Shown one piece after another: positions 16,077 through 27,879 of a DNA stretch of 32,000 nt. Origin of the DNA: an uncultured archaeon (GTDB taxonomy: Archaea > Iainarchaeota > Iainarchaeia > Iainarchaeales > JAAZKV01); NCBI GenBank assembly GCA_964551375.1, contig CAZKBG010000001.1, positions 660,001 through 692,000 of the forward strand, given 5' to 3'. The notes beneath the pieces were generated by a model that was given only the letters and a program-made list of their open reading frames with translations, was not told the origin of the DNA and made no database searches. The position numbers and the translations under genes are program-made. Position 1 is the first letter of the stretch. Each line of letters starts with the position of its first letter.

Positions 16077-17834
16077 ATGAATAGAGTTGCTATCCTATTA
16101 GTAATACTGTTATTTGCGCTTATTGCGCCTGTTTACTCAGCTGATGAAACAATATACCCTACAACCATAGGCAAACTCAACGCTGAAGTAAGTTTATTTG
16201 GGCAGGGAAAAATCACTGGACTAGCGCCGGGAGAGGAAGCAAAGCTTGAAACAATAACATTTCAGGAAAGCGAATTTCAAAAAGTAAAAATGCTAAAAGA
16301 AGAACTAATAATAAACGGCACAATAATCCGCCCAAAATATGTGCTTGATCAATTTGGAAACAAATACGCTGTATTTATCATAAACCAAAACGGGGATTTT
16401 AATTACGAACTAAGGGCAGACATAAACACAAGCGCATTTATTTTTGACATGGCTGATTATCCGCTCACAAGCGGAAACAACGCAATGCTTGAATACACTG
16501 AACAAACCGAAAAAATCGAAAGCTCCGCAACCGAAATCATGACGCTTGAAAAAAACAAAATTTACTCAAAAACATTCTTCTCTGTTTTGAACGAAACTGT
16601 GGACTGGGTAAATGACTATGTGGAATACGCAAAAGGAAATGATTTTAGATACTATTATCTCGAACAAAAATCGGCAGTGCAGACGCTCATAAGCAGAAAA
16701 GGAGTCTGCGACGAATTCACAAACCTTGCTGCATCAATTTTAAGATCAAAAAAAATACCAACAAGAGTTGCTATTGGAATAACATTTGATGGCAAAGACT
16801 GGGGAAACCACGCTTGGATGGAAGTGCACGACCAAAACATGAGCACGCGCGGAATATGGATTCCATCAGACGCAACATTTAGAGAAGCGGGATTTGTTGA
16901 CGCAACCCACATAAAAATGGGCTCATTTGACGATGTTTCAAACTCAAAAGCAAGATGCTACTATCCAATCAGCGCAACATGCAACCTTGACAACCAAAGC
17001 AGGCTTCCGCAGGTCACAATAAAAAGCAAAGAATACTTTTCAAGCGTAACGATGAGCGCAAAATCTGATAATATGAAAGCAAATAAGTGGAATGATGTTA
17101 ATGTAACTGTAAAAAATATCAGCAACGGAACAATAGCAGTCCCTGTGACAATAAAAGAAAACTATAACGAACTCATGATACAGGAAAAGAAAAAATCTGT
17201 TGTTTTAAAAGCAGGAGAAGAACAAGTAGTAACATTCAAAGTATTCCCAAAAATTGATTTACGAAACGATGAATATGCAAACGGAACACTAACATTCTCT
17301 TCGCTATCGGCACCTCTTGAAAAAGACATTGTAGTTTATCCAGGGAGTTACTCTGAAACAGACGGGGAAGTAATTGTTGAAGATGTAACCCCTATTGCGC
17401 ACGAAGGAACGCTAAAATTTGTGATAAAAATATCAAACTTTTACCAGGCCGACCAAGAAGCAAAGATATCCATAACCGCAAACGGCGTAAATGAACTTGC
17501 AAGCGAAATAATACCCGCAATGGGGACAAAAGTTATTACAAAAGAATTCGACCAGTACCAAATACAAGTTTACACAATCTCAATTGATGTTCCTGGAAAA
17601 ATATACACTCAAAAAGTTATTCCAATCAAAACCAAAATCATACTCCCTGACGACACTGAAAAACCGACTGTGATTGAAAAAATAGTCACCACAAGCGGAG
17701 ATGGAAACTCAGGAGTAATCGCTGACGAGGGCAGCAATCCGATACCATTCTTTGCAATGGTAATAATAGTAATGCTCCTTGCAGTTGCAATAGTGCTTGC
17801 AATATTATCATTCACCACAAGAAGATACGTATAA
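16077..17834 (+). CDS. Secreted, C-terminally membrane-anchored transglutaminase-like (Cys-His-Asp core) protein
   Basis: The N-terminal signal is MNRVAILLVILLFALIAPVYSA. The core is RKGVCDEFTNLAASILRSKKIPTRVAIG...GNHAWMEV...IPSDAT. The C-terminal TM is FFAMVIIVMLLAVAIVLAILSF, followed by TTRRYV. Confidence 0.8.
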   Translation: MNRVAILLVILLFALIAPVYSADETIYPTTIGKLNAEVSLFGQGKITGLAPGEEAKLETITFQESEFQKVKMLKEELIINGTIIRPKYVLDQFGNKYAVFIINQNGDFNYELRADINTSAFIFDMADYPLTSGNNAMLEYTEQTEKIESSATEIMTLEKNKIYSKTFFSVLNETVDWVNDYVEYAKGNDFRYYYLEQKSAVQTLISRKGVCDEFTNLAASILRSKKIPTRVAIGITFDGKDWGNHAWMEVHDQNMSTRGIWIPSDATFREAGFVDATHIKMGSFDDVSNSKARCYYPISATCNLDNQSRLPQVTIKSKEYFSSVTMSAKSDNMKANKWNDVNVTVKNISNGTIAVPVTIKENYNELMIQEKKKSVVLKAGEEQVVTFKVFPKIDLRNDEYANGTLTFSSLSAPLEKDIVVYPGSYSETDGEVIVEDVTPIAHEGTLKFVIKISNFYQADQEAKISITANGVNELASEIIPAMGTKVITKEFDQYQIQVYTISIDVPGKIYTQKVIPIKTKIILPDDTEKPTVIEKIVTTSGDGNSGVIADEGSNPIPFFAMVIIVMLLAVAIVLAILSFTTRRYV

Positions 17835-19078: not shown

Positions 19079-19708
19079 TTAAAACAACGCCTTGTCAACA
19101 AGCGGAAATATCTGCGAAAACACATCAGGAATGTTTTTGTTCGCGTCAATTACTGCAATATTCTCATTTGGAAGCAAAGTTGGGAGCTTTAAGAAGTATT
19201 CCCTAAGCGAAGAAATGAATTCAAGCTCTCTGAATTTATCGCTGTCCTTTCTTTTCTCGCTTTTTTCGGAATTAATTCTTCTAAAAGAGTTTTCTGGAGT
19301 CACATCAAGAATCAAGGCAAGGTCGGGAGCAAGAAAATTCATGTGCGCTGGAAAGACTTTATTAAAATCTGTGCCCTGAACTGTTTGATATGCGATGCTT
19401 GAGTACTTGTAGCGATCGCAAATCACCACAAAATTCTTCTCAAGCGAAGGCTTGATTATATTTTCAACATGCCACTCCCTGTCTTTAACAAATAATTCAA
19501 AAATTTCATCCCTAAAATCAGAAGAAGATTTTTGCTTCTTAAAATACTCCCTTAATTTCTGCCCGTATGGACCATTTGTCGGCTCATCAGTAACCAAAAT
19601 GTTGTCATACTTCTTGCTTTTCCCATAAATATGCTCAAAAGTTTTCTTTATCATCGTCCCTTTCCCGCACCCAGGCAAACCGTCAAATACAATAAAAGTC
19701 CCAGCCAT
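19079..19708 (-). CDS. Thymidylate kinase-like nucleoside monophosphate kinase (divergent paralog)
   Basis: The P-loop is FIVFDGLPGCGKGT, with TDEPTNGPYG and the DRYKYSSIAYQ (DRY..S..AYQ) signature. Confidence 0.7.
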   Translation of the reverse strand: MAGTFIVFDGLPGCGKGTMIKKTFEHIYGKSKKYDNILVTDEPTNGPYGQKLREYFKKQKSSSDFRDEIFELFVKDREWHVENIIKPSLEKNFVVICDRYKYSSIAYQTVQGTDFNKVFPAHMNFLAPDLALILDVTPENSFRRINSEKSEKRKDSDKFRELEFISSLREYFLKLPTLLPNENIAVIDANKNIPDVFSQIFPLVDKALF

Positions 19709-19712
19709 GATT

Positions 19713-20408
19713 TCACCTAAAAAATTTCTTTAAAGTTCTTCCCTCATTTAAACAAGCGCTGACTTCCTTCCAAACTTTCCCGCTAATTGCTTCAATTGGA
19801 AGCAGGTTTTTGCCGTCAGTGCAATCAACTCTAACCCATCCAAGCCTTTTAATATTTCGCTCATACTCATTACGCACAAGCTGTTGAAAATTCAAATCCT
19901 CTTCGTGCTGGTCGCGCTTCTTTCCGCGCTTATACCCTTCAGCTCGGTTTGCGTTATCCATAAACTTATGAGAAACCGCAATCGGGACGTCAAGAACAAT
20001 AACCAAATCAGGCTGGGGAAGACGGGAAGTCACAAGCCTTATCCACTCCCAAAGAGAATCCTTATTTTTCTTCTCAAGCGCAACCTGATAATTTAGCGTT
20101 GAGGAAAAAAATCTGCTTAATACAATATCCTTTCCTTCATCAAGAGCTTTTTCAATATGCAGCTTTGATTCGTAAAAATCAGTAATATACAAAAGCGCAA
20201 TAAATTCGGGAGAAAGAACATCCTTTGAGCCAAGCTCCCCCCTTAGATACGCGTCAACAACTTTCCCAAACTGATTGTCATGCTTTGGGAAATGCAAATG
20301 CTCAAGCTTTCTTCCCATGCTTTCCATTTTTTTGCAAACCAAATCAAGCTGGGTTTTCTTGCCAGTGCCGTCAGCGCCTTCAATTACAATTAACTTTCCC
20401 CTGCCCAT
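19713..20408 (-). CDS. tmk: Thymidylate kinase (dTMP kinase)
   Basis: The P-loop is LIVIEGADGTGKKTQ, with the LSRFFSSTLNYQ region and a lid-like basic segment EGYKRGKKRD. Its stop is 4 nt from the start of the next paralog. Confidence 0.75.
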   Translation of the reverse strand: MGRGKLIVIEGADGTGKKTQLDLVCKKMESMGRKLEHLHFPKHDNQFGKVVDAYLRGELGSKDVLSPEFIALLYITDFYESKLHIEKALDEGKDIVLSRFFSSTLNYQVALEKKNKDSLWEWIRLVTSRLPQPDLVIVLDVPIAVSHKFMDNANRAEGYKRGKKRDQHEEDLNFQQLVRNEYERNIKRLGWVRVDCTDGKNLLPIEAISGKVWKEVSACLNEGRTLKKFFR

Positions 20409-20755: not shown

Positions 20756-21088
20756 ATGGCGATAAAAATGGAAAAAGAAAAAAAACTCAAAGGAAGCCAA
20801 AAAATTGCGCTTGAAAGAATATATCGGCTTATTGAACTCGCTCGAAAAAATGAAAAATACTCCAAGAGATATGTCAGTATTGCAAAAGAAATCAGCAAAA
20901 AGATGAGAGTTCAGGTGCCAAAAGAGCTCAAAAAACAATACTGCAAAAAATGCTGTTCAATGAAAGTCAAAATTTCGACCAAAGAACCATTCCTGATTGT
21001 AAAATGCGAAGAATGCGGATTTGAAAAGAAATACGGGACAAAAAACAAGCCAAAAATAAAACCTACCCGCCCAGCGAAAGGCAAATAA
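20756..21088 (+). CDS. rnp4: RNase P protein component 4 (Rpp21/Rpr2 family)
   Basis: An N-terminal helical region (ALERIYRLIELARKN...YSKRYVSIAKEISKKMRV) is followed by a zinc ribbon, YCKKCCS...VKCEECG. Confidence 0.75.
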   Translation: MAIKMEKEKKLKGSQKIALERIYRLIELARKNEKYSKRYVSIAKEISKKMRVQVPKELKKQYCKKCCSMKVKISTKEPFLIVKCEECGFEKKYGTKNKPKIKPTRPAKGK

Positions 21089-21134
21089 ACACCATAAAAC
21101 AACAATATAACAACAAAACGAGGTGTTTATTCAA

Positions 21135-24100
21135 ATGAAAATAAAGGGACAGGGATCTATTGAAAATCTATTAATCATAAGCGCGGCGATTGTGGTTGTC
21201 GCAATAGTAATAGTAGCCGTTTATGGAATAATGACGCAAGGAAATGAAAGCGTAATAAGCGGAGAAGAAATAAACACCGGAACTACAGGAACTTTAAGAG
21301 AATTACAGGGAGTTGAAATACAAACAATTATTGTCCCTGACGGAACAAGCGCAACAATAGAAATAAAGCCAAGCGCGACTGATGATAAACTAAAAAACAT
21401 GTTCAAAGGAGCTCCAAACGGAACAGGCTTCACAGTAAACAACGGACCAAACAGCGGAAGCACATGCCAAAGAACAGCAACAGGATGGGTTGACGCCAAC
21501 GGAAACGGATGCAACACACCAATAACAAGCGGAACTTTACTAACAATCTCAAACTCAAGCGGAGGCGGAGGAACTTACACTGAAAGCATAAGAGGAGTGG
21601 GGACAACTGGAGGACAGGGACAAACTGTAACACAAACTATATCGCCAGGAACACCAACACCTATCACATTAACATTCACGCCAAACCAATTGATAACTGA
21701 TTTATTCACAAGCCTGCCGAGCGGAACAACAATTGCAATCGGAACTGACGGAACTATACTAACAAGAACTACAGATGGCTGGATTTTAACACTGCCAAAC
21801 GGAACAACAGTTACCGACACAAATGTAATAAATTCACTAATACCACTTTCAAACGGAACAGTACTCAATATTACAACACCAGCAGGATCAACAACAGTAA
21901 CACTAAGCATTGTGGAAGGAACACCACCAACAGTAGTACTGCCTACACCAATACAACTATCAACATGCGCTGATTTGCAGAATATACAAAACAATTTAGT
22001 GGGAAATTATGAACTTGCAAGCAACATTGACTGCTCAACACTAGAAGAATTCACACCAATAACAGATTTTAGAGGAACATTAAACGGAAAGGGACATAAA
22101 ATTTCAAACTTGTCCGTTTACTCAAGCAGCGGACAGCCGACTGGACTATTTTCCACAACAAACGGCGCAACAATAAAAAAATTATCAATAGAAGGCGCTG
22201 AAATAATCGGACTTCAATCAACAGGAATACTTGTTGGAAACATGGGCGGAGGGATAATTACTGAAGTTCACACACAAGGAAATGTGCAGGGAACAGATTA
22301 CGTTGGAGGAATAGTTGGAAGAACAATGGGTGGACAAATAACAAACTCCTACTCCACATCATCAACAGCAAATGAAGAAAGAATCCGCGCAACAGGAAAC
22401 TATGCGGGCGGAATAACAGGAAGCCTTGTTGGAGGAGGAAGCATAAATTCAGTATACTCTGAAGCAACAGTAGAAGCGCAAAATTACACAGGAGGAATTG
22501 TAGGAGAATTTATTGAAGCGCAAATGGCAAACGCATACTTCTCAGGCACAATAACCTCATCCCCTACATCAAAAATAGGCGGAGTAATCGGAAAAATGAA
22601 CAGCACATTTGGAGAATCAAACCTTTCATGGATGCTTTACCCTGACAACTGCGCAGGAGAAATATCATATAGAGAGCCAGGAAGCTGCGAGAAAAAATAC
22701 AACGAAGAAGACTTTATGGACCAAACATACGAGCCTATGGCATCATTCACTGGCGGATTTGGAACAGGCAAAGCATGGAGCATATGCCAATACGAAGACC
22801 AGCCGTGGCTGACATTTGAAAACAAAACATGCACTCCTCCGCAAATATATGCGGATGTAATCAACATCACTGGAGCCGGAACAATATACATACAACTTCA
22901 TGTGGCTCCAATAAACAATACACTAACAACGCTATTTGGAAGCATTGGAAACGGCGGACAAGTGAGAAAACTTGGAGACTCAACAGTGTTCACAAATAAC
23001 AGCGGGACATGGACAGCAAGCGGAGGAACAACAACCCCTGCACAATTAACTATAAACACAAATGATAAATTTGCGGTAACAAGCACTATGCCAAATATAT
23101 TCCAAGTAAATTCATACCAAACAACACCGCCATTTGTAACACAAATAACTGACACAACACCGCCGACAATAAAATCAATTAGTCTTCAAGGCTGCGGAGG
23201 AATAAAAGTTCCAAACACAGACACATACTCAAGATTTGACTACAATGTGCTAATAGAAACTACAGACACACAAACAGAAGTAGCAAGCTGCACAATAGAA
23301 AGCTATTTTAGAATACCGGGAACTATGACATGGCTTAAAGCAAACACAAAATCAATTGCAAATCCATTCATTATGCCTGATGTAAACTATATCCACGGAA
23401 ACCAAGTAATGACTTCTTCACCATACCCAACAAGCCTTGACACAAGATACACTGTAACATGCAAAGACATAATTGGAAACACAACAACAATGATTACAAC
23501 ACCAACAATGACATGCCCAATTCCTGCAGCGCCTCAACTAATATCATTGCCTGCGGGAAAAATAACAGCAGTAAAAATGAACGACACAGCTATTGACGAT
23601 CCAGCAAGCGCTTCGCCAATTCCGCCAAGGATTATCCAAATGTTTGGAACCCCATCAAACGGAACAACTGTTAGAAAAATGGGAAAAGCGGTAACTTACA
23701 CATGGAATAACGGATGGAGCGCAAGCAGCGGAAGCCACAATGATTTTAATGCAACAAACGGAGACACAATAATAATATCAACTCCGGCAGGAACGCCGAA
23801 TCAAATGGCAATATTTGCAAGGACAAGCCTGCCGTACGCAACAATTGTGAACGACACAACAGGACCGACTGTAACGAATGTACTCTCAAGCTGTTATCCA
23901 AAATCAGTGGCATTCATGGGGCCATACGCAAGAGACATAAACTTTGCAATAACTGCAAACGACACACAGCTCGAAACAAAGAACTGCTCACTTGTGATAA
24001 ACAAAACAGCACCTGCGCCGGCAATGACTTTCAATGCGACTACCGGAACAAATTATCTCCAGACAGGAAATTTTGTGCACACAATGACAATATCACAAAT

Positions 24101-24206
24101 GGCTGATTTAACAACACCAGTAACAGTAAACGGAACTATCACCTGCCAAGACTCACTTGGAAATATCGGCCCAATGAACACAATCGGGATATATAATTGT
24201 CCATAA
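21135..24206 (+). CDS. Giant class III signal peptide (type IV pilin-like) surface protein with a GLUG-type beta-helix insertion and repeated modules (1023 aa)
   Basis: The N-terminus is MKIKG|QGSIENLLIISAAIVVVAIVIVAVYGI (QxSxE motif plus hydrophobic helix). I prefer ATG 21135, with GAGGTG about 9 nt upstream, over GTG 21123. The protein is T/N/G-rich, and I counted more than 20 N-x-S/T sequons by eye. Confidence 0.8.
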   Translation: MKIKGQGSIENLLIISAAIVVVAIVIVAVYGIMTQGNESVISGEEINTGTTGTLRELQGVEIQTIIVPDGTSATIEIKPSATDDKLKNMFKGAPNGTGFTVNNGPNSGSTCQRTATGWVDANGNGCNTPITSGTLLTISNSSGGGGTYTESIRGVGTTGGQGQTVTQTISPGTPTPITLTFTPNQLITDLFTSLPSGTTIAIGTDGTILTRTTDGWILTLPNGTTVTDTNVINSLIPLSNGTVLNITTPAGSTTVTLSIVEGTPPTVVLPTPIQLSTCADLQNIQNNLVGNYELASNIDCSTLEEFTPITDFRGTLNGKGHKISNLSVYSSSGQPTGLFSTTNGATIKKLSIEGAEIIGLQSTGILVGNMGGGIITEVHTQGNVQGTDYVGGIVGRTMGGQITNSYSTSSTANEERIRATGNYAGGITGSLVGGGSINSVYSEATVEAQNYTGGIVGEFIEAQMANAYFSGTITSSPTSKIGGVIGKMNSTFGESNLSWMLYPDNCAGEISYREPGSCEKKYNEEDFMDQTYEPMASFTGGFGTGKAWSICQYEDQPWLTFENKTCTPPQIYADVINITGAGTIYIQLHVAPINNTLTTLFGSIGNGGQVRKLGDSTVFTNNSGTWTASGGTTTPAQLTINTNDKFAVTSTMPNIFQVNSYQTTPPFVTQITDTTPPTIKSISLQGCGGIKVPNTDTYSRFDYNVLIETTDTQTEVASCTIESYFRIPGTMTWLKANTKSIANPFIMPDVNYIHGNQVMTSSPYPTSLDTRYTVTCKDIIGNTTTMITTPTMTCPIPAAPQLISLPAGKITAVKMNDTAIDDPASASPIPPRIIQMFGTPSNGTTVRKMGKAVTYTWNNGWSASSGSHNDFNATNGDTIIISTPAGTPNQMAIFARTSLPYATIVNDTTGPTVTNVLSSCYPKSVAFMGPYARDINFAITANDTQLETKNCSLVINKTAPAPAMTFNATTGTNYLQTGNFVHTMTISQMADLTTPVTVNGTITCQDSLGNIGPMNTIGIYNCP
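21364..21536. repeat. Copy 1 of a 173-nt block identical to 24538..24710
   Basis: Base-by-base comparison: TAAAGCCAAGCGCGACTGATGATAAAC...CAATAACAAGCGGAACT is identical in both genes, while the flanks are clearly diverged. Confidence 0.9.
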
Positions 24207-24217
24207 ATTTAACAAAA

Positions 24218-24250
24218 GCAACAGGAGAAATCCTGTTGCCCTGTTTTTTT
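24218..24250 (+). terminator. Terminator-like hairpin plus T7 after the first pilin-like gene
   Basis: GCAACAGGA-GAAA-TCCTGTTGC is a 9-bp perfect stem, followed by CCTGTTTTTTT. Confidence 0.55.
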
Positions 24251-24272
24251 AAGAATTCACATTTAGGTTAGG

Positions 24273-24280
24273 TATAAATA
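24273..24280 (+). promoter_or_regulatory. TATA box of the second pilin-like gene
   Basis: GGTATAAATACC. The TATA ends 22 nt before ATG 24303, ACTAATTA lies at 24293-24300, and there is no SD, which suggests a leaderless mRNA. Confidence 0.5.
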
Positions 24281-24302
24281 CCAAAAAGCACAACTAATTA
24301 TC

Positions 24303-25787
24303 ATGCAAAACATAAAAAAAGCTCAAGGCTCGCTTGAAAACTTATTAATCATAAGCGCGGCAATCATAGTTGTAGCAGTTGTAATAATTGCAGTTTATGG
24401 AATAATGACGCAGGGAAATGAAAGCGTAATAAGCGGAGAAGATATTAAGACAGGAACTACTGGAACGCTAAGAGAAATGCAGGGAGTTGAAATACAAACA
24501 GTGGATGTTCCTGCAGACAGCCAGGTTACAATTACAGTAAAGCCAAGCGCGACTGATGATAAACTAAAAAACATGTTCAAAGGAGCTCCAAACGGAACAG
24601 GCTTCACAGTAAACAACGGACCAAACAGCGGAAGCACATGCCAAAGAACAGCAACAGGATGGGTTGACGCCAACGGAAACGGATGCAACACACCAATAAC
24701 AAGCGGAACTAATGTAACAATTTCAACAAGCGGAGGAAGCTCATATCATGAAGAAATAAGAGGAGTAGGAACAGGAGGAACAACAACAGGAACATTCTCG
24801 CAAGCAATTAGCCCAGGAACTCCAACTACTATTACAGCACCATTTAATTCAAACGCATATTTTACAGATGTATTTTCTGCAATGCCGATTGGAACAATAA
24901 TCACTGTGGGAACATCAAGACTGACAAGAACAGCAACAGGATGGGTTTTGACTTTACAGGACGGAACAATAATAACTGATCCTTACCAAATCAATCAATT
25001 AATCCCTGTTACAAGCGGAACTGTATTCATAATTACTTCACCTACTCAAACAACAATTACTTTAACAGAAGGAACTCCTCCAGCGCCAGTAACTGACTCA
25101 ATCGCACTTGCAGCAGGAGAAACAATTGCGCTGAAAATAAACGCAAACCTTGACAATAATACATTAAACGGATTATTTCCATCAATGGCAGCAAATTCAA
25201 CAGTAAGAAAAGTTGGAACAAACAGCACGTTCACTTACAACGGAACTGCTTGGAGCTCAAGCGGAGGAACAACACCCGCACAATTTAGCGCAAACCTAAA
25301 TGACACTTTAATAATAAAAAGCACTGGCGCATTCACAATAAACGCAAGAAGCTTCACTGCGCAGGCACCGCTTGTAACAAAAATAATTGACACAACTGGA
25401 CCGACAATCAACAGCATATATGCATACTGCCGACTAATAGGAAGTGGATACAGCGTCAGCAGAGCTGTTAGATTCACAATAAACGGAACGGATGATCAGC
25501 TTGAGTCAATATACTGCAGACTGGACATAACATACACCCGAACACTAAACCAAGGACCGACAACTGCAACAATTGACGACTACACATACCCACACACTTA
25601 TACTAGAACTGCGGACATGCAAAGAGACCACGTACTACACTCATGGACAAGCAGCTACAGCCCGGTTGTTTACAACGACATAAACTTTACATGCTTTGAC
25701 TCGCTCGGAAACGCAAGCGCAAAAGCAAATTTTAAAAACTTCCGGTGTGAACCAGAAAACATGCTCCCTGGACAGAGACTAAAATAA
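24303..25787 (+). CDS. Class III signal peptide (type IV pilin-like) surface protein, paralog of 21135..24206 (494 aa)
   Basis: The N-terminus is MQNIKKA|QGSLENLLIISAAIIVVAVVIIAVYGI. The first ~270 aa are collinear with the larger paralog, and the C-terminal DTTGPT...C...C.D.LGN...C.P module is shared. Confidence 0.8.
   Translation: MQNIKKAQGSLENLLIISAAIIVVAVVIIAVYGIMTQGNESVISGEDIKTGTTGTLREMQGVEIQTVDVPADSQVTITVKPSATDDKLKNMFKGAPNGTGFTVNNGPNSGSTCQRTATGWVDANGNGCNTPITSGTNVTISTSGGSSYHEEIRGVGTGGTTTGTFSQAISPGTPTTITAPFNSNAYFTDVFSAMPIGTIITVGTSRLTRTATGWVLTLQDGTIITDPYQINQLIPVTSGTVFIITSPTQTTITLTEGTPPAPVTDSIALAAGETIALKINANLDNNTLNGLFPSMAANSTVRKVGTNSTFTYNGTAWSSSGGTTPAQFSANLNDTLIIKSTGAFTINARSFTAQAPLVTKIIDTTGPTINSIYAYCRLIGSGYSVSRAVRFTINGTDDQLESIYCRLDITYTRTLNQGPTTATIDDYTYPHTYTRTADMQRDHVLHSWTSSYSPVVYNDINFTCFDSLGNASAKANFKNFRCEPENMLPGQRLK
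24538..24710. repeat. Copy 2 of the 173-nt block identical to 21364..21536
   Basis: See copy 1. It encodes KPSATDDKLKNMFKGAPNGTGFTVNNGPNSGSTCQRTATGWVDANGNGCNTPITSGT in both proteins. Confidence 0.9.
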
Positions 25788-25836
25788 GGTTTTTAATAAA
25801 CACAAAAAAAAACCTTCTTTAAACTACAAAGCAAAG

Positions 25837-25844
25837 TATAAATA
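25837..25844 (+). promoter_or_regulatory. TATA box of the third pilin-like gene
   Basis: AGTATAAATACT has the same GTATAAATAC core as at 24272. ACTAATTA lies at 25852-25859. The TATA ends 21 nt before ATG 25866 and 27 nt before ATG 25872. Confidence 0.5.
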
Positions 25845-25865
25845 CTTACAAACTAATTAATTTTC

Positions 25866-27164
25866 ATGCTTATGCAAAACAAAGGACAGGGTGTCCAAAG
25901 CGGACAAGCCCCAAATAGGGGACAGGGGGCAATTGAATACTTACTAATCATCGGCGCAGCGATACTTGTAATTGCTATTGTAATAATTGCAATAAGCGGA
26001 GCGCTTGGAACAGGAACTAATCAAAGCGCAGGCGCAAAAGGAAATCAAATGGGGGCGTTTGTAAACTTAAGACAAATGAACCTAACCCCCCAATTTTTCA
26101 GATTGCCTTCAGTGTCCCTTGGACCAGGACAGCAAATAATATTTAATTACACTGACCCAGCAACTGGGCAAACTACACAAACACCAATTACAAATCAAGC
26201 ACAACTAAACCAGGCATTAATGAATGGAGACTTAAACCTATACCTAACCCCGCCAGGGGTTTCAGCCACTCCTGGAATGAGCACAAGTTACATATTATCG
26301 ACTCCTCAAACAAATAAACCAAAAAATCTGCTGAAAATAATTGGTTGCATGAAAAATAGCCCTTATTCACAAACCCCTTCTGGAACAGCTGGATTTCTAA
26401 TCGGAGACGAAGCAGGAAGCAGAATACAAGACCAGGCAATAATGGCTGATTTAAATAACCGCCCAGTAAAACTTATTTCAATTACAGGATACGGCGGAAG
26501 CAATTACTCAAACGCAGTTGACAAGACATACAAATTACGACTTTCCCAACCATTCTACTATTATTCTATGCCAGGCTATTTTGTATACCTCGCAACTTTT
26601 GAAGGACTGACTGATAATTCAGGAAACCCGATAAATCAAACAGCAATAAACAGCATTTGCAATAGCAGCACAGGATATTCAGTAGGAAATGCCAACGTAA
26701 GATCAGAATTCAACGGGTGGTCATTTTACAACTATGATTATGATATTATATATGGAAACAATCCCGGACTTGCAGAAATAGCAATAGCATATAATGGAAC
26801 AAACACAACAATAATCGGGAGAGACAATAAAGGAAATCTGCTCACTGACACAGTAACAGCATATCTGCCATGCACTGAAACACAGTGGCTGCCGATTGCT
26901 GGATATACTGGAAACCAGCAAATATACAAAAGATGCTGCGATTATGCTAACTGCTGTTCAAGGACATCACTAGGAATATTAACAAGCACAAACTGCACAA
27001 TAGATACAGTAACCCACTGTCAGTCATTTACCTGCGAGCCAACAACATGCACTCTTGGAACAAGAAAAGTAACAAGTTACTATGACACAAATATATTCAC
27101 CTGCTTAAACCAACCAACCCAAATAGCAAACATGTATGTTGAAGCAATCATAAGCGCGCCATAA
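25866..27164 (+). CDS. Class III signal peptide (type IV pilin-like) surface protein with a Cys-rich C-terminal region (432 aa, or 430 from ATG 25872)
   Basis: ...NKGQGVQSGQAPNRG|QGAIEYLLIIGAAILVIAIVIIAISGA. The rest is unrelated to the two upstream paralogs. There are 10 Cys in the last ~100 aa. Confidence 0.8.
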   Translation: MLMQNKGQGVQSGQAPNRGQGAIEYLLIIGAAILVIAIVIIAISGALGTGTNQSAGAKGNQMGAFVNLRQMNLTPQFFRLPSVSLGPGQQIIFNYTDPATGQTTQTPITNQAQLNQALMNGDLNLYLTPPGVSATPGMSTSYILSTPQTNKPKNLLKIIGCMKNSPYSQTPSGTAGFLIGDEAGSRIQDQAIMADLNNRPVKLISITGYGGSNYSNAVDKTYKLRLSQPFYYYSMPGYFVYLATFEGLTDNSGNPINQTAINSICNSSTGYSVGNANVRSEFNGWSFYNYDYDIIYGNNPGLAEIAIAYNGTNTTIIGRDNKGNLLTDTVTAYLPCTETQWLPIAGYTGNQQIYKRCCDYANCCSRTSLGILTSTNCTIDTVTHCQSFTCEPTTCTLGTRKVTSYYDTNIFTCLNQPTQIANMYVEAIISAP

Positions 27165-27189
27165 ACAAATTTTAACCCCAAAATCAACC

Positions 27190-27197
27190 TTTATAAA
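27190..27197 (+). promoter_or_regulatory. TATA-like box upstream of the ribosomal protein operon
   Basis: TTTATAAA lies about 97 nt upstream of the eS19 ATG. The ATG itself has GGGTGA at 4-nt spacing, which implies a leader of about 70 nt. Confidence 0.35.
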
Positions 27198-27294
27198 CGT
27201 TACTGGGGGAGTGATACTTATTCTACTGGCTCCTAGAAAGCTTTTCGAAGCGGTTTTTGGTTGAGCAAGTTAACACTGAAAAGTGGGTGATTGA

Positions 27295-27879
27295 ATGGGA
27301 ATACATGACGTTCCGGCAGAGTACTTAATTGAGGAAACTGCGGGAAAACTAATAGGCGAAATACAAAAGCCTGAATGGACAGACTATGTAAAAACAGGAA
27401 TGCACGTTGAACGAGCTCCACAAAGAGAAGACTGGTTCTACATGAGAATGGCAAGCATTCTTTATAGAGCGTTCAAATGGGGAACTATTGGAACAGAAGC
27501 CCTAAGAACATATTACGGCGGAAGAAGAAACCGAGGCGTAAAGAAAGAGCACCATTACAAAGCAAGCGGAAAAGTAATCCGAACATGCGTGCAAGCGCTT
27601 GAAAAAGCAGGCTACTTAGAAAGAGCACAGCCAAGCGGAAGAAAAATTACTACAAAAGGATTCAGATTATTAAACGACACTGCTAAGGTTGCAGAGAAGA
27701 ACTGGAAAGAAGGAAAATACGAACACAAAGAAAAAGCAACAAAAGCATTCGATGAAAAGAAGAAGAAAGAAGTGCAAGACACACTAAGAAGACAGGATCA
27801 CGGCGGGCACAAAGCATCTGCTGAATCAAAAGACAAGAAACAGTCGCAGAAATCTCCAAAGAAAAAGGACGGTGAATAA
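27295..27879 (+). CDS. rps19e: Ribosomal protein eS19 (S19e) with a K-rich C-terminal extension
   Basis: DVPAEYLIEETAGKL...PEWTDYVKTGMHVERAPQREDWFYMRMASILYRAF...GRKITTKGFRLLN. Confidence 0.9.
   Translation: MGIHDVPAEYLIEETAGKLIGEIQKPEWTDYVKTGMHVERAPQREDWFYMRMASILYRAFKWGTIGTEALRTYYGGRRNRGVKKEHHYKASGKVIRTCVQALEKAGYLERAQPSGRKITTKGFRLLNDTAKVAEKNWKEGKYEHKEKATKAFDEKKKKEVQDTLRRQDHGGHKASAESKDKKQSQKSPKKKDGE

What the first reader, a model, noticed from the sequence alone, without database searches (positions are those of the whole stretch)
21955..22840. GLUG-type beta-helix domain inserted into a prepilin-type protein
The segment is present in the 1023-aa protein and absent from the collinear 494-aa paralog. 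It starts LSTCADLQNIQNNLVGNYELASNIDCS...FTPITDFRGTLNGKGHKISNLSV. It continues with repeated G-G-(I/L)-(V/T)-G turns: STGILVGNMGGGIITEV, YVGGIVGRTMGGQITNSYS, YAGGITGSLVGGGSINSVYS, YTGGIVGEFIEAQMANAYFSG and KIGGVIGKMN. It ends GKAWSICQYEDQPWLTFEN. That is the layout of GLUG-motif (PF07581) domains known from bacterial IgA1-protease-type and adhesin-type surface proteins: an opening like L..I...L.G.Y.L..DID, then F.G.F.G.GH.I.NL, and a closing W.I.....P.L. I know of no described archaeal pilin-like protein fused to such a domain. The paralog comparison makes it look like a discrete insertion.
Basis: partly seen in the sequence, partly recalled or inferred. Interest (0 to 1): 0.6.

Follow-up and report, generated by a model that had tools for sequence, protein, structure and literature searches.

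The report
GLUG beta-helix inside archaeal pilin-like adhesin
A 1023-residue surface protein of a tiny DPANN-type archaeon starts like a pilus subunit and carries a genuine GLUG beta-helix module between strings of Ig-like domains; it is probably an adhesin, and this "pilin plus GLUG" design is common in the lineage, not unique.

Summary
Gene A (window 21135-24206, +) and its neighbour B (24303-25787, +) share a class III (prepilin-type) signal, an N-terminal helix and a ~210-aa N module (about 70% identity). A alone has a 298-aa block (residues 269-566, window 21939-22832).

That block is a true GLUG/Peptidase_M26_N domain. It has 902 homologues at E<=1e-3 and matches IgA1 proteases by sequence. 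Its AlphaFold model (pLDDT >90 over residues 1-223) hits 3N6Z and the IgA1-protease N-terminal beta-helix.

- A also has a second copy of the ~228-aa C-terminal module, so the GLUG block explains only about half of the size difference.
- Whether A gained the block or B lost it cannot be decided, because the A/B family has no outgroup.
- The nearest full-length relatives of the block are GLUG cassettes of pilin-like proteins in the same genus, not bacterial ones. This points to in-lineage domain shuffling.
- Class III signal plus GLUG is common here: six genes in this genome and at least 11 in relatives. This scan already reported the design on other DNA of this genome.

The likely function is adhesion, with the protein displayed through the pilin-type helix. 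That is inferred, not shown. I found no published description. Interest is moderate.

The parts
21135..24206 (+). Gene A: 1023-aa class III signal, multi-domain surface protein (includes the stop codon)
   Evidence: ORF and translation. An identical protein with this start is in the database (P0003). An ortholog at 65% identity exists in genome G004.
21135..21239 (+). Class III signal: leader MKIKG, then Q-G-S-I-E-N-L-L and a hydrophobic helix (residues 1-35)
   Evidence: PF04021 scores 18.9 bits, below its 23.7 cut-off. The motif is visible in the sequence. AlphaFold predicts a helix at residues 8-35. The helix is 71% identical over 28 aa to the short pilins at C1:637783 and C1:638126.
21240..21314 (+). 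Low-confidence linker (residues 36-60)
   Evidence: pLDDT is about 30 in the full-length model.
21315..21938 (+). N module shared with paralog B (residues 61-268); beta-rich, probably two beta-sandwich domains; 2 Cys
   Evidence: About 70% identical to B and 68% to the G004 ortholog. pLDDT is 74-92. The full model matches FN3/Ig arrays.
21364..21536 (+). 173-nt tract identical to 24538-24710 in gene B (gene conversion)
   Evidence: Exact run of 173 nt. The orthologs are only about 76% identical at the nucleotide level over the aligned codons 90-120 that lie inside the tract. Repeat D1.
21939..22832 (+). GLUG / Peptidase_M26_N-type beta-helix cassette (residues 269-566); 6 Cys; ends ...ENKTC; flanked by TPP linkers
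22833..23516 (+). C module copy 1 (residues 567-794): a ~110-aa beta domain plus a ~115-aa four-Cys 'DTTxPT' domain
   Evidence: 32-35% identical to B's C module. The module HMMs hit only A and B in the genome.
23517..24203 (+). C module copy 2 (residues 795-1023)
   Evidence: 28-33% identical to B's C module and 25% to copy 1; its G004 ortholog is 63% identical.
24218..24250 (+). Hairpin followed by a T-run just after the stop codon of A (terminator-like)
   Evidence: 9-bp stem, then T-run; sequence seen.
24303..25787 (+). Gene B: 494-aa paralog without the GLUG block and with a single C module
   Evidence: Only A and B reach E<1e-10 among 1.84 billion representative proteins.
25866..27164 (+). 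Gene C: third class III signal protein (432 aa), unrelated in its mature part
   Evidence: PF04021 scores 25.4 bits, above its cut-off. Helix class as.

Best explanation
Gene A encodes a secreted surface protein, probably glycosylated and disulfide-bonded, of a small-genome DPANN-type archaeon (Iainarchaeota-like). It is made with a class III (prepilin-type) signal. One of the genome's two A24 peptidases most likely cuts after the MKIKG leader. The remaining hydrophobic helix then either enters a type IV pilus-like fibre or anchors the protein in the membrane. The fibre would be built from short pilins with nearly the same helix. Outside the cell the protein is a string of modules: a flexible linker, two beta-sandwich domains, a complete GLUG beta-helix cassette, then two copies of a two-domain beta-sandwich module. 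The GLUG cassette lies exactly in a Pro/Thr-rich linker. Its closest full-length relatives are the C-terminal GLUG cassettes of other pilin-like proteins of the same genus. It was therefore most likely moved in by recombination between the lineage's own surface-protein genes, before this species split from G004. The beta-helix is a binding surface, so the protein acts as an adhesin. Shown: domain identity, fold, boundaries, paralog and ortholog relations, and presence of the processing and assembly genes. Inferred: cleavage, display on a pilus, adhesion, and the direction of the event.
For: GLUG identity: 902 homologues at E<=1e-3, IgA1 proteases by sequence at E 2e-7, and a near-threshold PF05342 score. 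Fold: pLDDT >90 over residues 1-223 of the block. Foldseek finds 3N6Z at E 3e-8 and TM 0.64, then 7UVK, 6XJB and 6XJA; other beta-helix proteins come only at E>0.02. The rest of the protein matches tandem FN3/Ig arrays. Boundaries fall in linkers...EGTPPTVVLPTPIQ[cassette ...ENKTC]TPPQIY in A against EGTPPAPVTDS in B, with low pLDDT on both sides. In-lineage origin: the IQ-TREE full-domain tree groups the block with cassettes from G000, G004 and G017 at SH-aLRT 96. The AU test on the first 235 aa does not reject this (p 0.785). Those partner proteins end exactly at ENKTC. Age: G004 has orthologs of A and B in the same order, with the block 65% identical. Machinery: 2 Peptidase_A24 genes, 7 T2SSE ATPases over the family cut-off and 10 T2SSF platform matches. 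A's helix is 71% identical to those of the short pilins in the C1:634-643 kb pilus locus. Extracellular features: 24 N-x-S/T sequons and an even number of Cys in every module. Published view of archaeal GLUG proteins: function unknown, possible role in adhesion (PMC9723798).
Against: No experimental data exist, and the tool for finding sequencing runs (for expression or habitat) was unavailable. The helix is followed by a 25-residue low-confidence linker instead of a packed pilin head, so a canonical pilin fold is not shown. No pilus assembly genes lie in the window. GLUG domains have no demonstrated ligand anywhere. In A the GLUG module is in the middle of the protein, not at the tip. A FastTree of the first 240 aa alone placed the block next to a gammaproteobacterial sequence (support 86), so the in-lineage origin rests largely on the C-terminal cap. 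The direction of the event (gain in A or loss in B) is unresolved.
Confidence: 0.6

Rival explanations
1. The difference arose by deletion. The ancestor had the A-type layout (N module, GLUG, C, C), and B lost the GLUG cassette together with one C module in a single deletion between two Pro-rich linkers.
For: One deletion is more parsimonious than an insertion plus a duplication. All three C-module lineages are equally distant at 25-32% identity, so B's C module could descend from either copy in A. No outgroup exists to polarise the change.
Against: B's C module is no closer to C1 or C2 than those two are to each other. The cassette has the same start and end as the free-standing C-terminal cassettes of other genes, which fits a mobile module being added.
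Confidence: 0.3
2. The GLUG cassette of A was acquired directly from a bacterium by lateral transfer, as the first reader suggested testing.
For: Most GLUG proteins in the databases are bacterial. A FastTree of the first 240 aa put the block beside a gammaproteobacterial domain with support 86. GLUG is patchy in the order, found in 20 of 121 genomes searched.
Against: The best single-domain score, and the only full-length matches that include the Cys-rich cap, are in-genus proteins (132 bits against at most 100 for others). IQ-TREE on the full domain groups them at SH-aLRT 96. In the AU test the tree with this group held together was actually better on the first 235 aa. There is no GC anomaly across the block. 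The block predates the G000/G004 split.
Confidence: 0.1
3. A is not a pilus subunit. The class III signal is used only for export and membrane anchoring, and the protein sits on the cell envelope, like the class III signal sugar-binding proteins of the Sulfolobus bindosome.
For: Class III signals on non-pilin surface proteins are established in archaea (PMC3047682, listed). A is very large. It has a flexible linker after the helix and no predicted packed pilin head. No assembly genes are adjacent.
Against: A's helix is 71% identical to those of the short pilins encoded in a complete pilus locus. The genome has at least 5 ATPase/platform sets and 33 class III candidates. Bacterial modular pilins of similar design are incorporated into pili (PMC8179133).
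Confidence: 0.35
4. The GLUG block is part of an enzyme (an M26-type protease or a polysaccharide lyase/hydrolase beta-helix), not a binding module.
For: The best PDB relatives are IgA1 proteases. Weak Foldseek matches to pectate lyases exist.
Against: There is no HExxH motif anywhere in A and only 6 His in total. There is no Peptidase_M26_C hit. The match covers only the non-catalytic N-terminal domain of the proteases. Pectate lyase matches have E>0.02 and TM 0.2-0.3.
Confidence: 0.05

Closest known systems
GLUG / Peptidase_M26_N domain, as in the N-terminal beta-helix of streptococcal IgA1 proteases (PDB 6XJA, 6XJB, 7UVK) and BACOVA_03286 (PDB 3N6Z)
   Same: Homologous sequence with repeated G-G-[ILV]-x-G turns. 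It has the opening L..I...L.G.Y.L..DID motif and the closing W.I....P.L motif. It has the same fold by Foldseek.
   Different: There is no metalloprotease domain and no HExxH. The host protein is archaeal, has a class III signal, and embeds the domain between Ig-like modules. It has an extra Cys-rich ~75-aa cap shared only with in-genus proteins.
Bacterial modular type IV pilins (Streptococcus sanguinis PilB with a vWA module, PilC with a lectin module; Raynaud et al. 2021, PMC8179133)
   Same: Both have an N-terminal prepilin-type signal and helix, followed through a linker by bulky functional modules thought to mediate adhesion.
   Different: That survey was bacterial, defined by IPR012902, and never mentions archaea. 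A has the archaeal Q-x-S-x-E type signal, no demonstrable pilin head, and seven extra domains, not one. Incorporation into a pilus is untested.
Other class III signal plus GLUG proteins of this genome and genus (for example C1:843029-844450 at 473 aa and C1:820398-822194 at 598 aa)
   Same: Same signal type and the same GLUG cassette. The 473-aa protein has the closest cassette: 38% identity over the full length including the cap.
   Different: Those proteins have a different helix class (QGTIEYLVII...) and a ~170-aa head, with the GLUG part at the C-terminus. In A the cassette is internal, within the unrelated A/B scaffold.
Archaeal GLUG-motif membrane proteins (15 in Methanimicrococcus blatticola; halomucin-like proteins of Haloquadratum)
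   Same: They are archaeal surface proteins with GLUG motifs, proposed to act in adhesion (PMC9723798; PMC3119063).
   Different: No link to class III signals or pilins is made in the passages of those papers that mention GLUG.

Membership tests
GLUG domain (Pfam PF07581 / PF05342 Peptidase_M26_N) | Score at or above the Pfam gathering cut-off | tested here: not met
   PF05342 scores 27.6 bits against 27.7, and PF07581 scores 18.7 against 20.5. The database's precomputed annotation does list PF05342 for the identical protein P0003.
GLUG domain (Pfam PF07581 / PF05342 Peptidase_M26_N) | Significant homology to recognised family members | tested here: met
   902 proteins at E<=1e-3, the best at 1e-68. 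Most of the 120 listed carry PF07581 and/or PF05342. IgA1 proteases match at E 2e-7.
GLUG domain (Pfam PF07581 / PF05342 Peptidase_M26_N) | Beta-helix fold like the solved family members | tested here: met
   AlphaFold pLDDT >90 for residues 1-223. Foldseek finds 3N6Z at E 3e-8, and 7UVK, 6XJB and 6XJA at probability 1.00 with rmsd 3.2-4.3. The last 77 residues are modelled poorly.
M26 IgA1-specific metalloprotease | Catalytic Zn-metalloprotease domain with HExxH | tested here: not met
   There is no HExxH in A and no Peptidase_M26_C hit.
Archaeal type IV pilin-like proteins (class III signal substrates) | Short basic leader, G/A at -1, Q at +1, E at +5, then about 20 hydrophobic residues | tested here: met
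   The pattern MKIKG|QGSIENLL plus a hydrophobic helix is seen directly. PF04021 is below its cut-off for A (18.9 against 23.7) and above it for neighbour C (25.4).
Archaeal type IV pilin-like proteins (class III signal substrates) | Cognate class III signal peptidase and assembly ATPase/platform genes in the genome | tested here: met
   2 Peptidase_A24 genes, 7 T2SSE over the cut-off and 10 T2SSF matches. None lies in the window. The nearest are at C1:697063 (about 5 kb past the window's end) and C1:652621 (about 7 kb before its start).
Archaeal type IV pilin-like proteins (class III signal substrates) | Pilin head packed against the C-terminal half of the N-terminal helix | tested here: inconclusive
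   The model shows a helix at 8-35, then a linker at 36-60 with pLDDT about 30, before the first beta domain.
Archaeal type IV pilin-like proteins (class III signal substrates) | Cleavage by the peptidase and incorporation into a filament | not testable with these tools
   This needs proteomics or imaging of a culture or enrichment.
Modular type IV pilins sensu Raynaud et al. 2021 | N-terminal IPR012902-type (bacterial N-methylation) pilin motif plus an extra non-pilus domain | tested here: not met
   A has the archaeal class III motif, not the bacterial one. The extra domains are present. A therefore works like a modular pilin but is not a member of the family as it was defined.

The most novel reading that the evidence does not exclude
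The site between the RNase P subunit Rpr2 and ribosomal protein S19e may be a dedicated variable slot for pilus-displayed adhesins in this DPANN genus. Genes there would keep a common stem, comprising the helix and N module, which gene conversion homogenises (the 173-nt identical tract). Their outer modules, including whole GLUG cassettes, would be swapped in, duplicated or lost. This would give each species a different adhesin set, and possibly a different host or surface specificity.
Probability: 0.2. Interest if true: 0.65.

Novelty: new variant of a known kind. Interest (0 to 1): 0.4.

Why it matters
DPANN archaea have tiny genomes and are thought to live attached to other cells, but how they attach is largely unknown. 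This gene is a clear, well-bounded example of surface proteins being built by shuffling ready-made modules onto a pilin-type anchor. Here the module is a GLUG beta-helix also used by bacterial surface proteins. It offers a defined cassette (residues 269-566) and a natural control without it (paralog B) for binding and structural studies. It extends the modular-pilin idea, so far described only for bacteria, to archaea. [quoted passage not shown] This genome has two prepilin peptidases, seven ATPases and about 33 candidate substrates.

Tried and rejected
- **Related-loci search.** The search for related loci with the 21-row alignment failed because no stretch was conserved enough. It was repeated with four close rows. 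That scan depends on two peptide patterns, so it is not a census.
- **FastTree on the first 240 aa.** It placed the block next to a gammaproteobacterial domain. IQ-TREE on the full domain and the AU test did not uphold this.
- **Outgroup search for the A/B family.** Among 1.84 billion representatives only A and B reach E<1e-10, so gain versus loss stays open.
- **Shared repeat in the N and C modules.** I tested whether the N module contains the same ~100-aa repeat as the C modules. The HMM gives only i-E 0.004-0.3 in a five-sequence search, which is not significant.
- **Protease or lyase reading.** Rejected: no HExxH, no M26_C hit, and only weak lyase matches.
- **Cluster look-up for names of top hits.** It gave few names. 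Gene context showed that P0005 is archaeal and P0004 bacterial.
- **Sequencing runs.** The look-up of sequencing runs, for expression and habitat, was not available.
- **Literature.** No paper in the held library links GLUG with pilins or class III signals.
Full report
**1. What is there**

The window is G000:C1:660001-692000. G000 is a 1.09-Mb genome in 10 contigs, 93% complete. It is archaeal: the window holds RNase P Rpr2, ribosomal proteins S19e and L31e, eIF6, prefoldin and FtsY. Named relatives of its GLUG proteins include a Candidatus Iainarchaeum MAG and "uncultured archaeon" MAGs. It is therefore a small-genome DPANN-type archaeon.

Three consecutive + strand genes lie between Rpr2 and S19e:
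- A, 21135-24206, 1023 aa counted from the ATG.
- B, 24303-25787, 494 aa.
- C, 25866-27164, 432 aa.

All three start with a class III (prepilin-type) signal.

**2. Check of the observation**

All quoted peptides are in A. BLASTP of A against B shows an N-terminal part at 68% identity. It also shows a block in A with no counterpart in B, and then two successive stretches of A that each align with B's single C-terminal part at 30-32%.

In ATG numbering A reads as follows:
- leader and helix, residues 1-35
- linker, 36-60
- N module, 61-268
- unique block, 269-566 (window 21939-22832)
- C module copy 1, 567-794
- C module copy 2, 795-1023

**3. Identity of the block**

- Pfam gives Peptidase_M26_N at 27.6 bits (cut-off 27.7) and Glug at 18.7 bits (cut-off 20.5). 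Both are just below the curated thresholds.
- A region-restricted search of 5.8 billion proteins found 902 proteins at E<=1e-3, the best at 1e-68. Most of the 120 listed hits carry PF07581 or PF05342, and those that bear a name are mostly called GLUG motif-containing proteins.
- Against PDB sequences the only real matches are IgA1 proteases, at E 2e-7 to 1e-6.
- An AlphaFold model built on 21 sequences has pLDDT above 90 for residues 1-223 of the block. It shows the regular short-strand pattern of a beta-helix. The last 77 residues are poorly modelled.
- Foldseek finds 3N6Z (a putative IgA1 protease of Bacteroides ovatus) at E 3e-8 and TM 0.64. The IgA1 proteases 7UVK, 6XJB, 6XJA and 7JGJ follow. 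Pectate lyases and other beta-helices appear only at E>0.02 with TM 0.2-0.3.
- A has no HExxH and no M26 catalytic domain.

The block is a GLUG beta-helix, not a protease.

**4. The rest of the protein**

The full-length model has a mean pLDDT of 74.7. It shows a helix at residues 8-35, a low-confidence linker at 36-60, and beta-rich modules on both sides of the GLUG helix. Confidence dips at the module junctions. Apart from IgA1 proteases, its Foldseek matches are tandem FN3/Ig arrays such as gp130, contactins, titin and fibronectin.

A has 24 N-x-S/T sequons. Its Cys counts per module are even: 2, 6, 4 and 4. This fits an extracellular, disulfide-bonded, probably glycosylated protein.

The junctions are Pro/Thr linkers. 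A reads ...EGTPPTVVLPTPIQ, then the cassette ending ENKTC, then TPPQIY.... B reads ...EGTPPAPVTDS... at the same place.

**5. Paralogs, orthologs and age**

- Among 41 related genomes only G004, of the same genus, has orthologs. Its A' is 65% identical overall (GLUG 65%, C1 65%, C2 63%). Its B' is 74% identical in the N module and 71% in the C module. Gene order A-B-C-S19e is the same. The GLUG block and the second C module therefore predate the split of these two species.
- Among 1.84 billion representative proteins only A and B reach E<1e-10 with B as the query. The A/B scaffold is an orphan family, and there is no outgroup.
- The three C-module lineages (C1, C2 and B's) are equally distant at 25-32% identity. 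Insertion into A versus deletion from B therefore cannot be decided.
- The N modules are far more similar, and gene conversion explains part of this. A 173-nt tract (21364-21536 against 24538-24710) is identical between A and B. The orthologs differ by about 24% at the nucleotide level over the aligned codons 90-120, which lie inside that tract.

**6. Where the cassette came from**

G000 has at least 12 GLUG-bearing ORFs. The best single-domain match to A's block is the C-terminal cassette of a 473-aa class III protein at C1:843029-844450. It scores 132 bits at 38% identity and covers the block end to end, including the Cys-rich cap. That protein ends exactly at ENKTC. G004 and G017 have the same kind of protein.

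- An IQ-TREE of 74 full-length domains groups A's block and its G004 ortholog with these three in-genus cassettes at SH-aLRT 96.
- A FastTree of the first 240 aa alone had put the block next to a gammaproteobacterial domain with support 86.
- In an AU test on the first 235 aa, the tree with the five in-genus rows held together was 24 log-likelihood units better than the freely searched tree (p 0.785).
- GC content does not change across the block.

The evidence favours shuffling of a cassette among the lineage's own genes over direct transfer from a bacterium. Where GLUG domains in this archaeal family ultimately came from remains open. In the order, GLUG was found in 20 of 121 genomes searched, and in 9 of 10 from the same family.

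**7. How common the design is**

Six proteins in G000 combine a class III signal with GLUG. At least 11 of the GLUG ORFs fetched from relatives start with a class III signal. Two cases outside the family were also seen. One is a 1373-aa archaeal protein, P0005, with TBP, MCM and RFC as neighbours. The other is a protein cluster with Pilin_N plus Glug that its sources name "flagellin-like".

Earlier agents of this scan described the same theme on other DNA of this genome. I re-derived the points that I use here.

In the held literature, GLUG in archaea is mentioned only as a motif of unknown function, possibly adhesive (PMC9723798; PMC3119063). Modular pilins are described for bacteria only (PMC8179133). 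No paper links GLUG with pilins or class III signals.

**8. How it probably works**

The genome encodes two Peptidase_A24 enzymes, seven T2SSE-type ATPases and ten T2SSF platform matches. A regular-expression scan finds 33 class III candidates, which fall into helix classes. A, B and C, together with two other passenger-bearing proteins, share the QGAIEYLLIIG-type helix. So do the 61-aa and 95-aa pilins in the pilus locus at C1:634-643 kb, which are 71% identical to A over 28 aa. The other GLUG pilin-like proteins use a QGTIEYLVII-type helix.

I infer that A is processed and displayed through this helix. It sits either as a rare or tip subunit of that fibre or as a membrane-anchored protein, and the GLUG helix acts as a binding surface. 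Cleavage, location and ligand are all untested.

**9. Context**

Rpr2 and S19e are adjacent in five genomes of the genus, and adjacent or separated by a single ORF without a class III signal in several other families. In at least six other genomes of the genus, class III genes of 88-336 aa with the same helix type sit just upstream of S19e. In two of them Rpr2 is visible on the far side within the DNA fetched. G000 and G004 have A, B and C at this site. The site looks like a variable slot for pilin-like genes.

A is followed by a hairpin and a T-run. B and C each have a TATAAATA box and an ACTAATTA element upstream of the ATG, while A has a GAGGTG upstream.

**10. Verdict**

It is a new variant of known kinds: a GLUG domain, class III signal surface proteins and modular pilins. 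It is not a new kind of system, and it is one of many such proteins in this lineage. Interest is 0.4.

Noticed in passing
window 21364-21536 and 24538-24710: A 173-nt tract is identical between paralogs A and B although the flanks have diverged. The orthologs in G004 are only about 76% identical at the nucleotide level over the aligned codons 90-120 inside the tract. This indicates recent gene conversion in the shared N module.
   Followed up: yes
window 20756-27879; loci L139-L163: The Rpr2-S19e junction is a variable slot. The two genes are adjacent in five genomes of the genus, and adjacent or one ORF apart in several other families. At least six other genus members have class III signal genes of 88-336 aa just upstream of S19e, all with the QGA(I/L)EYLLIIG-type helix. 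G000 and G004 have A, B and C there.
   Followed up: partly
G000:C1:634434-643445 (17-26 kb before the window's start): A complete pilus locus: a T2SSE ATPase, two platform genes, short pilins of 61, 95 and 102 aa, a Peptidase_A24 gene and further class III ORFs. The two shortest pilins have the helix most similar to A's. The genome as a whole has 7 ATPases and about 33 class III candidates. A 2026 survey states that type IV filament systems are widespread in most archaeal phyla except Asgard and DPANN archaea.
   Followed up: partly
window 24207-24302 and 25788-25865; 21089-21134: Genes B and C each have a TATAAATA box and an ACTAATTA element close to the ATG. Gene A instead has a GAGGTG about 9 nt upstream, sits 47 nt after Rpr2, and is followed by a hairpin and a T-run at 24218-24250. 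A may be co-transcribed with Rpr2, while B and C may have their own promoters.
   Followed up: no
window 25866-27164: Gene C (432 aa) has two G-Q-G motifs in its leader; only the second is followed by the hydrophobic helix. Its mature part is unrelated to A and B. The G004 counterpart appears shorter or disrupted (a 203-aa frame).
   Followed up: no
G000:C1:767543-787686: An island of four giant GLUG-repeat proteins (1994, 1274, 1525 and 1543 aa) with Sec-type N-termini. It is bracketed by two 216-227-aa class III proteins.
   Followed up: no
window 19079-20408 (- strand): Two adjacent, diverged thymidylate kinase genes (209 and 231 aa).
   Followed up: no
window 16077-17834: A 585-aa protein with a transglutaminase-like core domain.
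   Followed up: no
G000 contigs C3, C7 and C10: Three short contigs have 57-59% GC against 38% for the main contigs. They may not belong to this genome (binning contamination).
   Followed up: no
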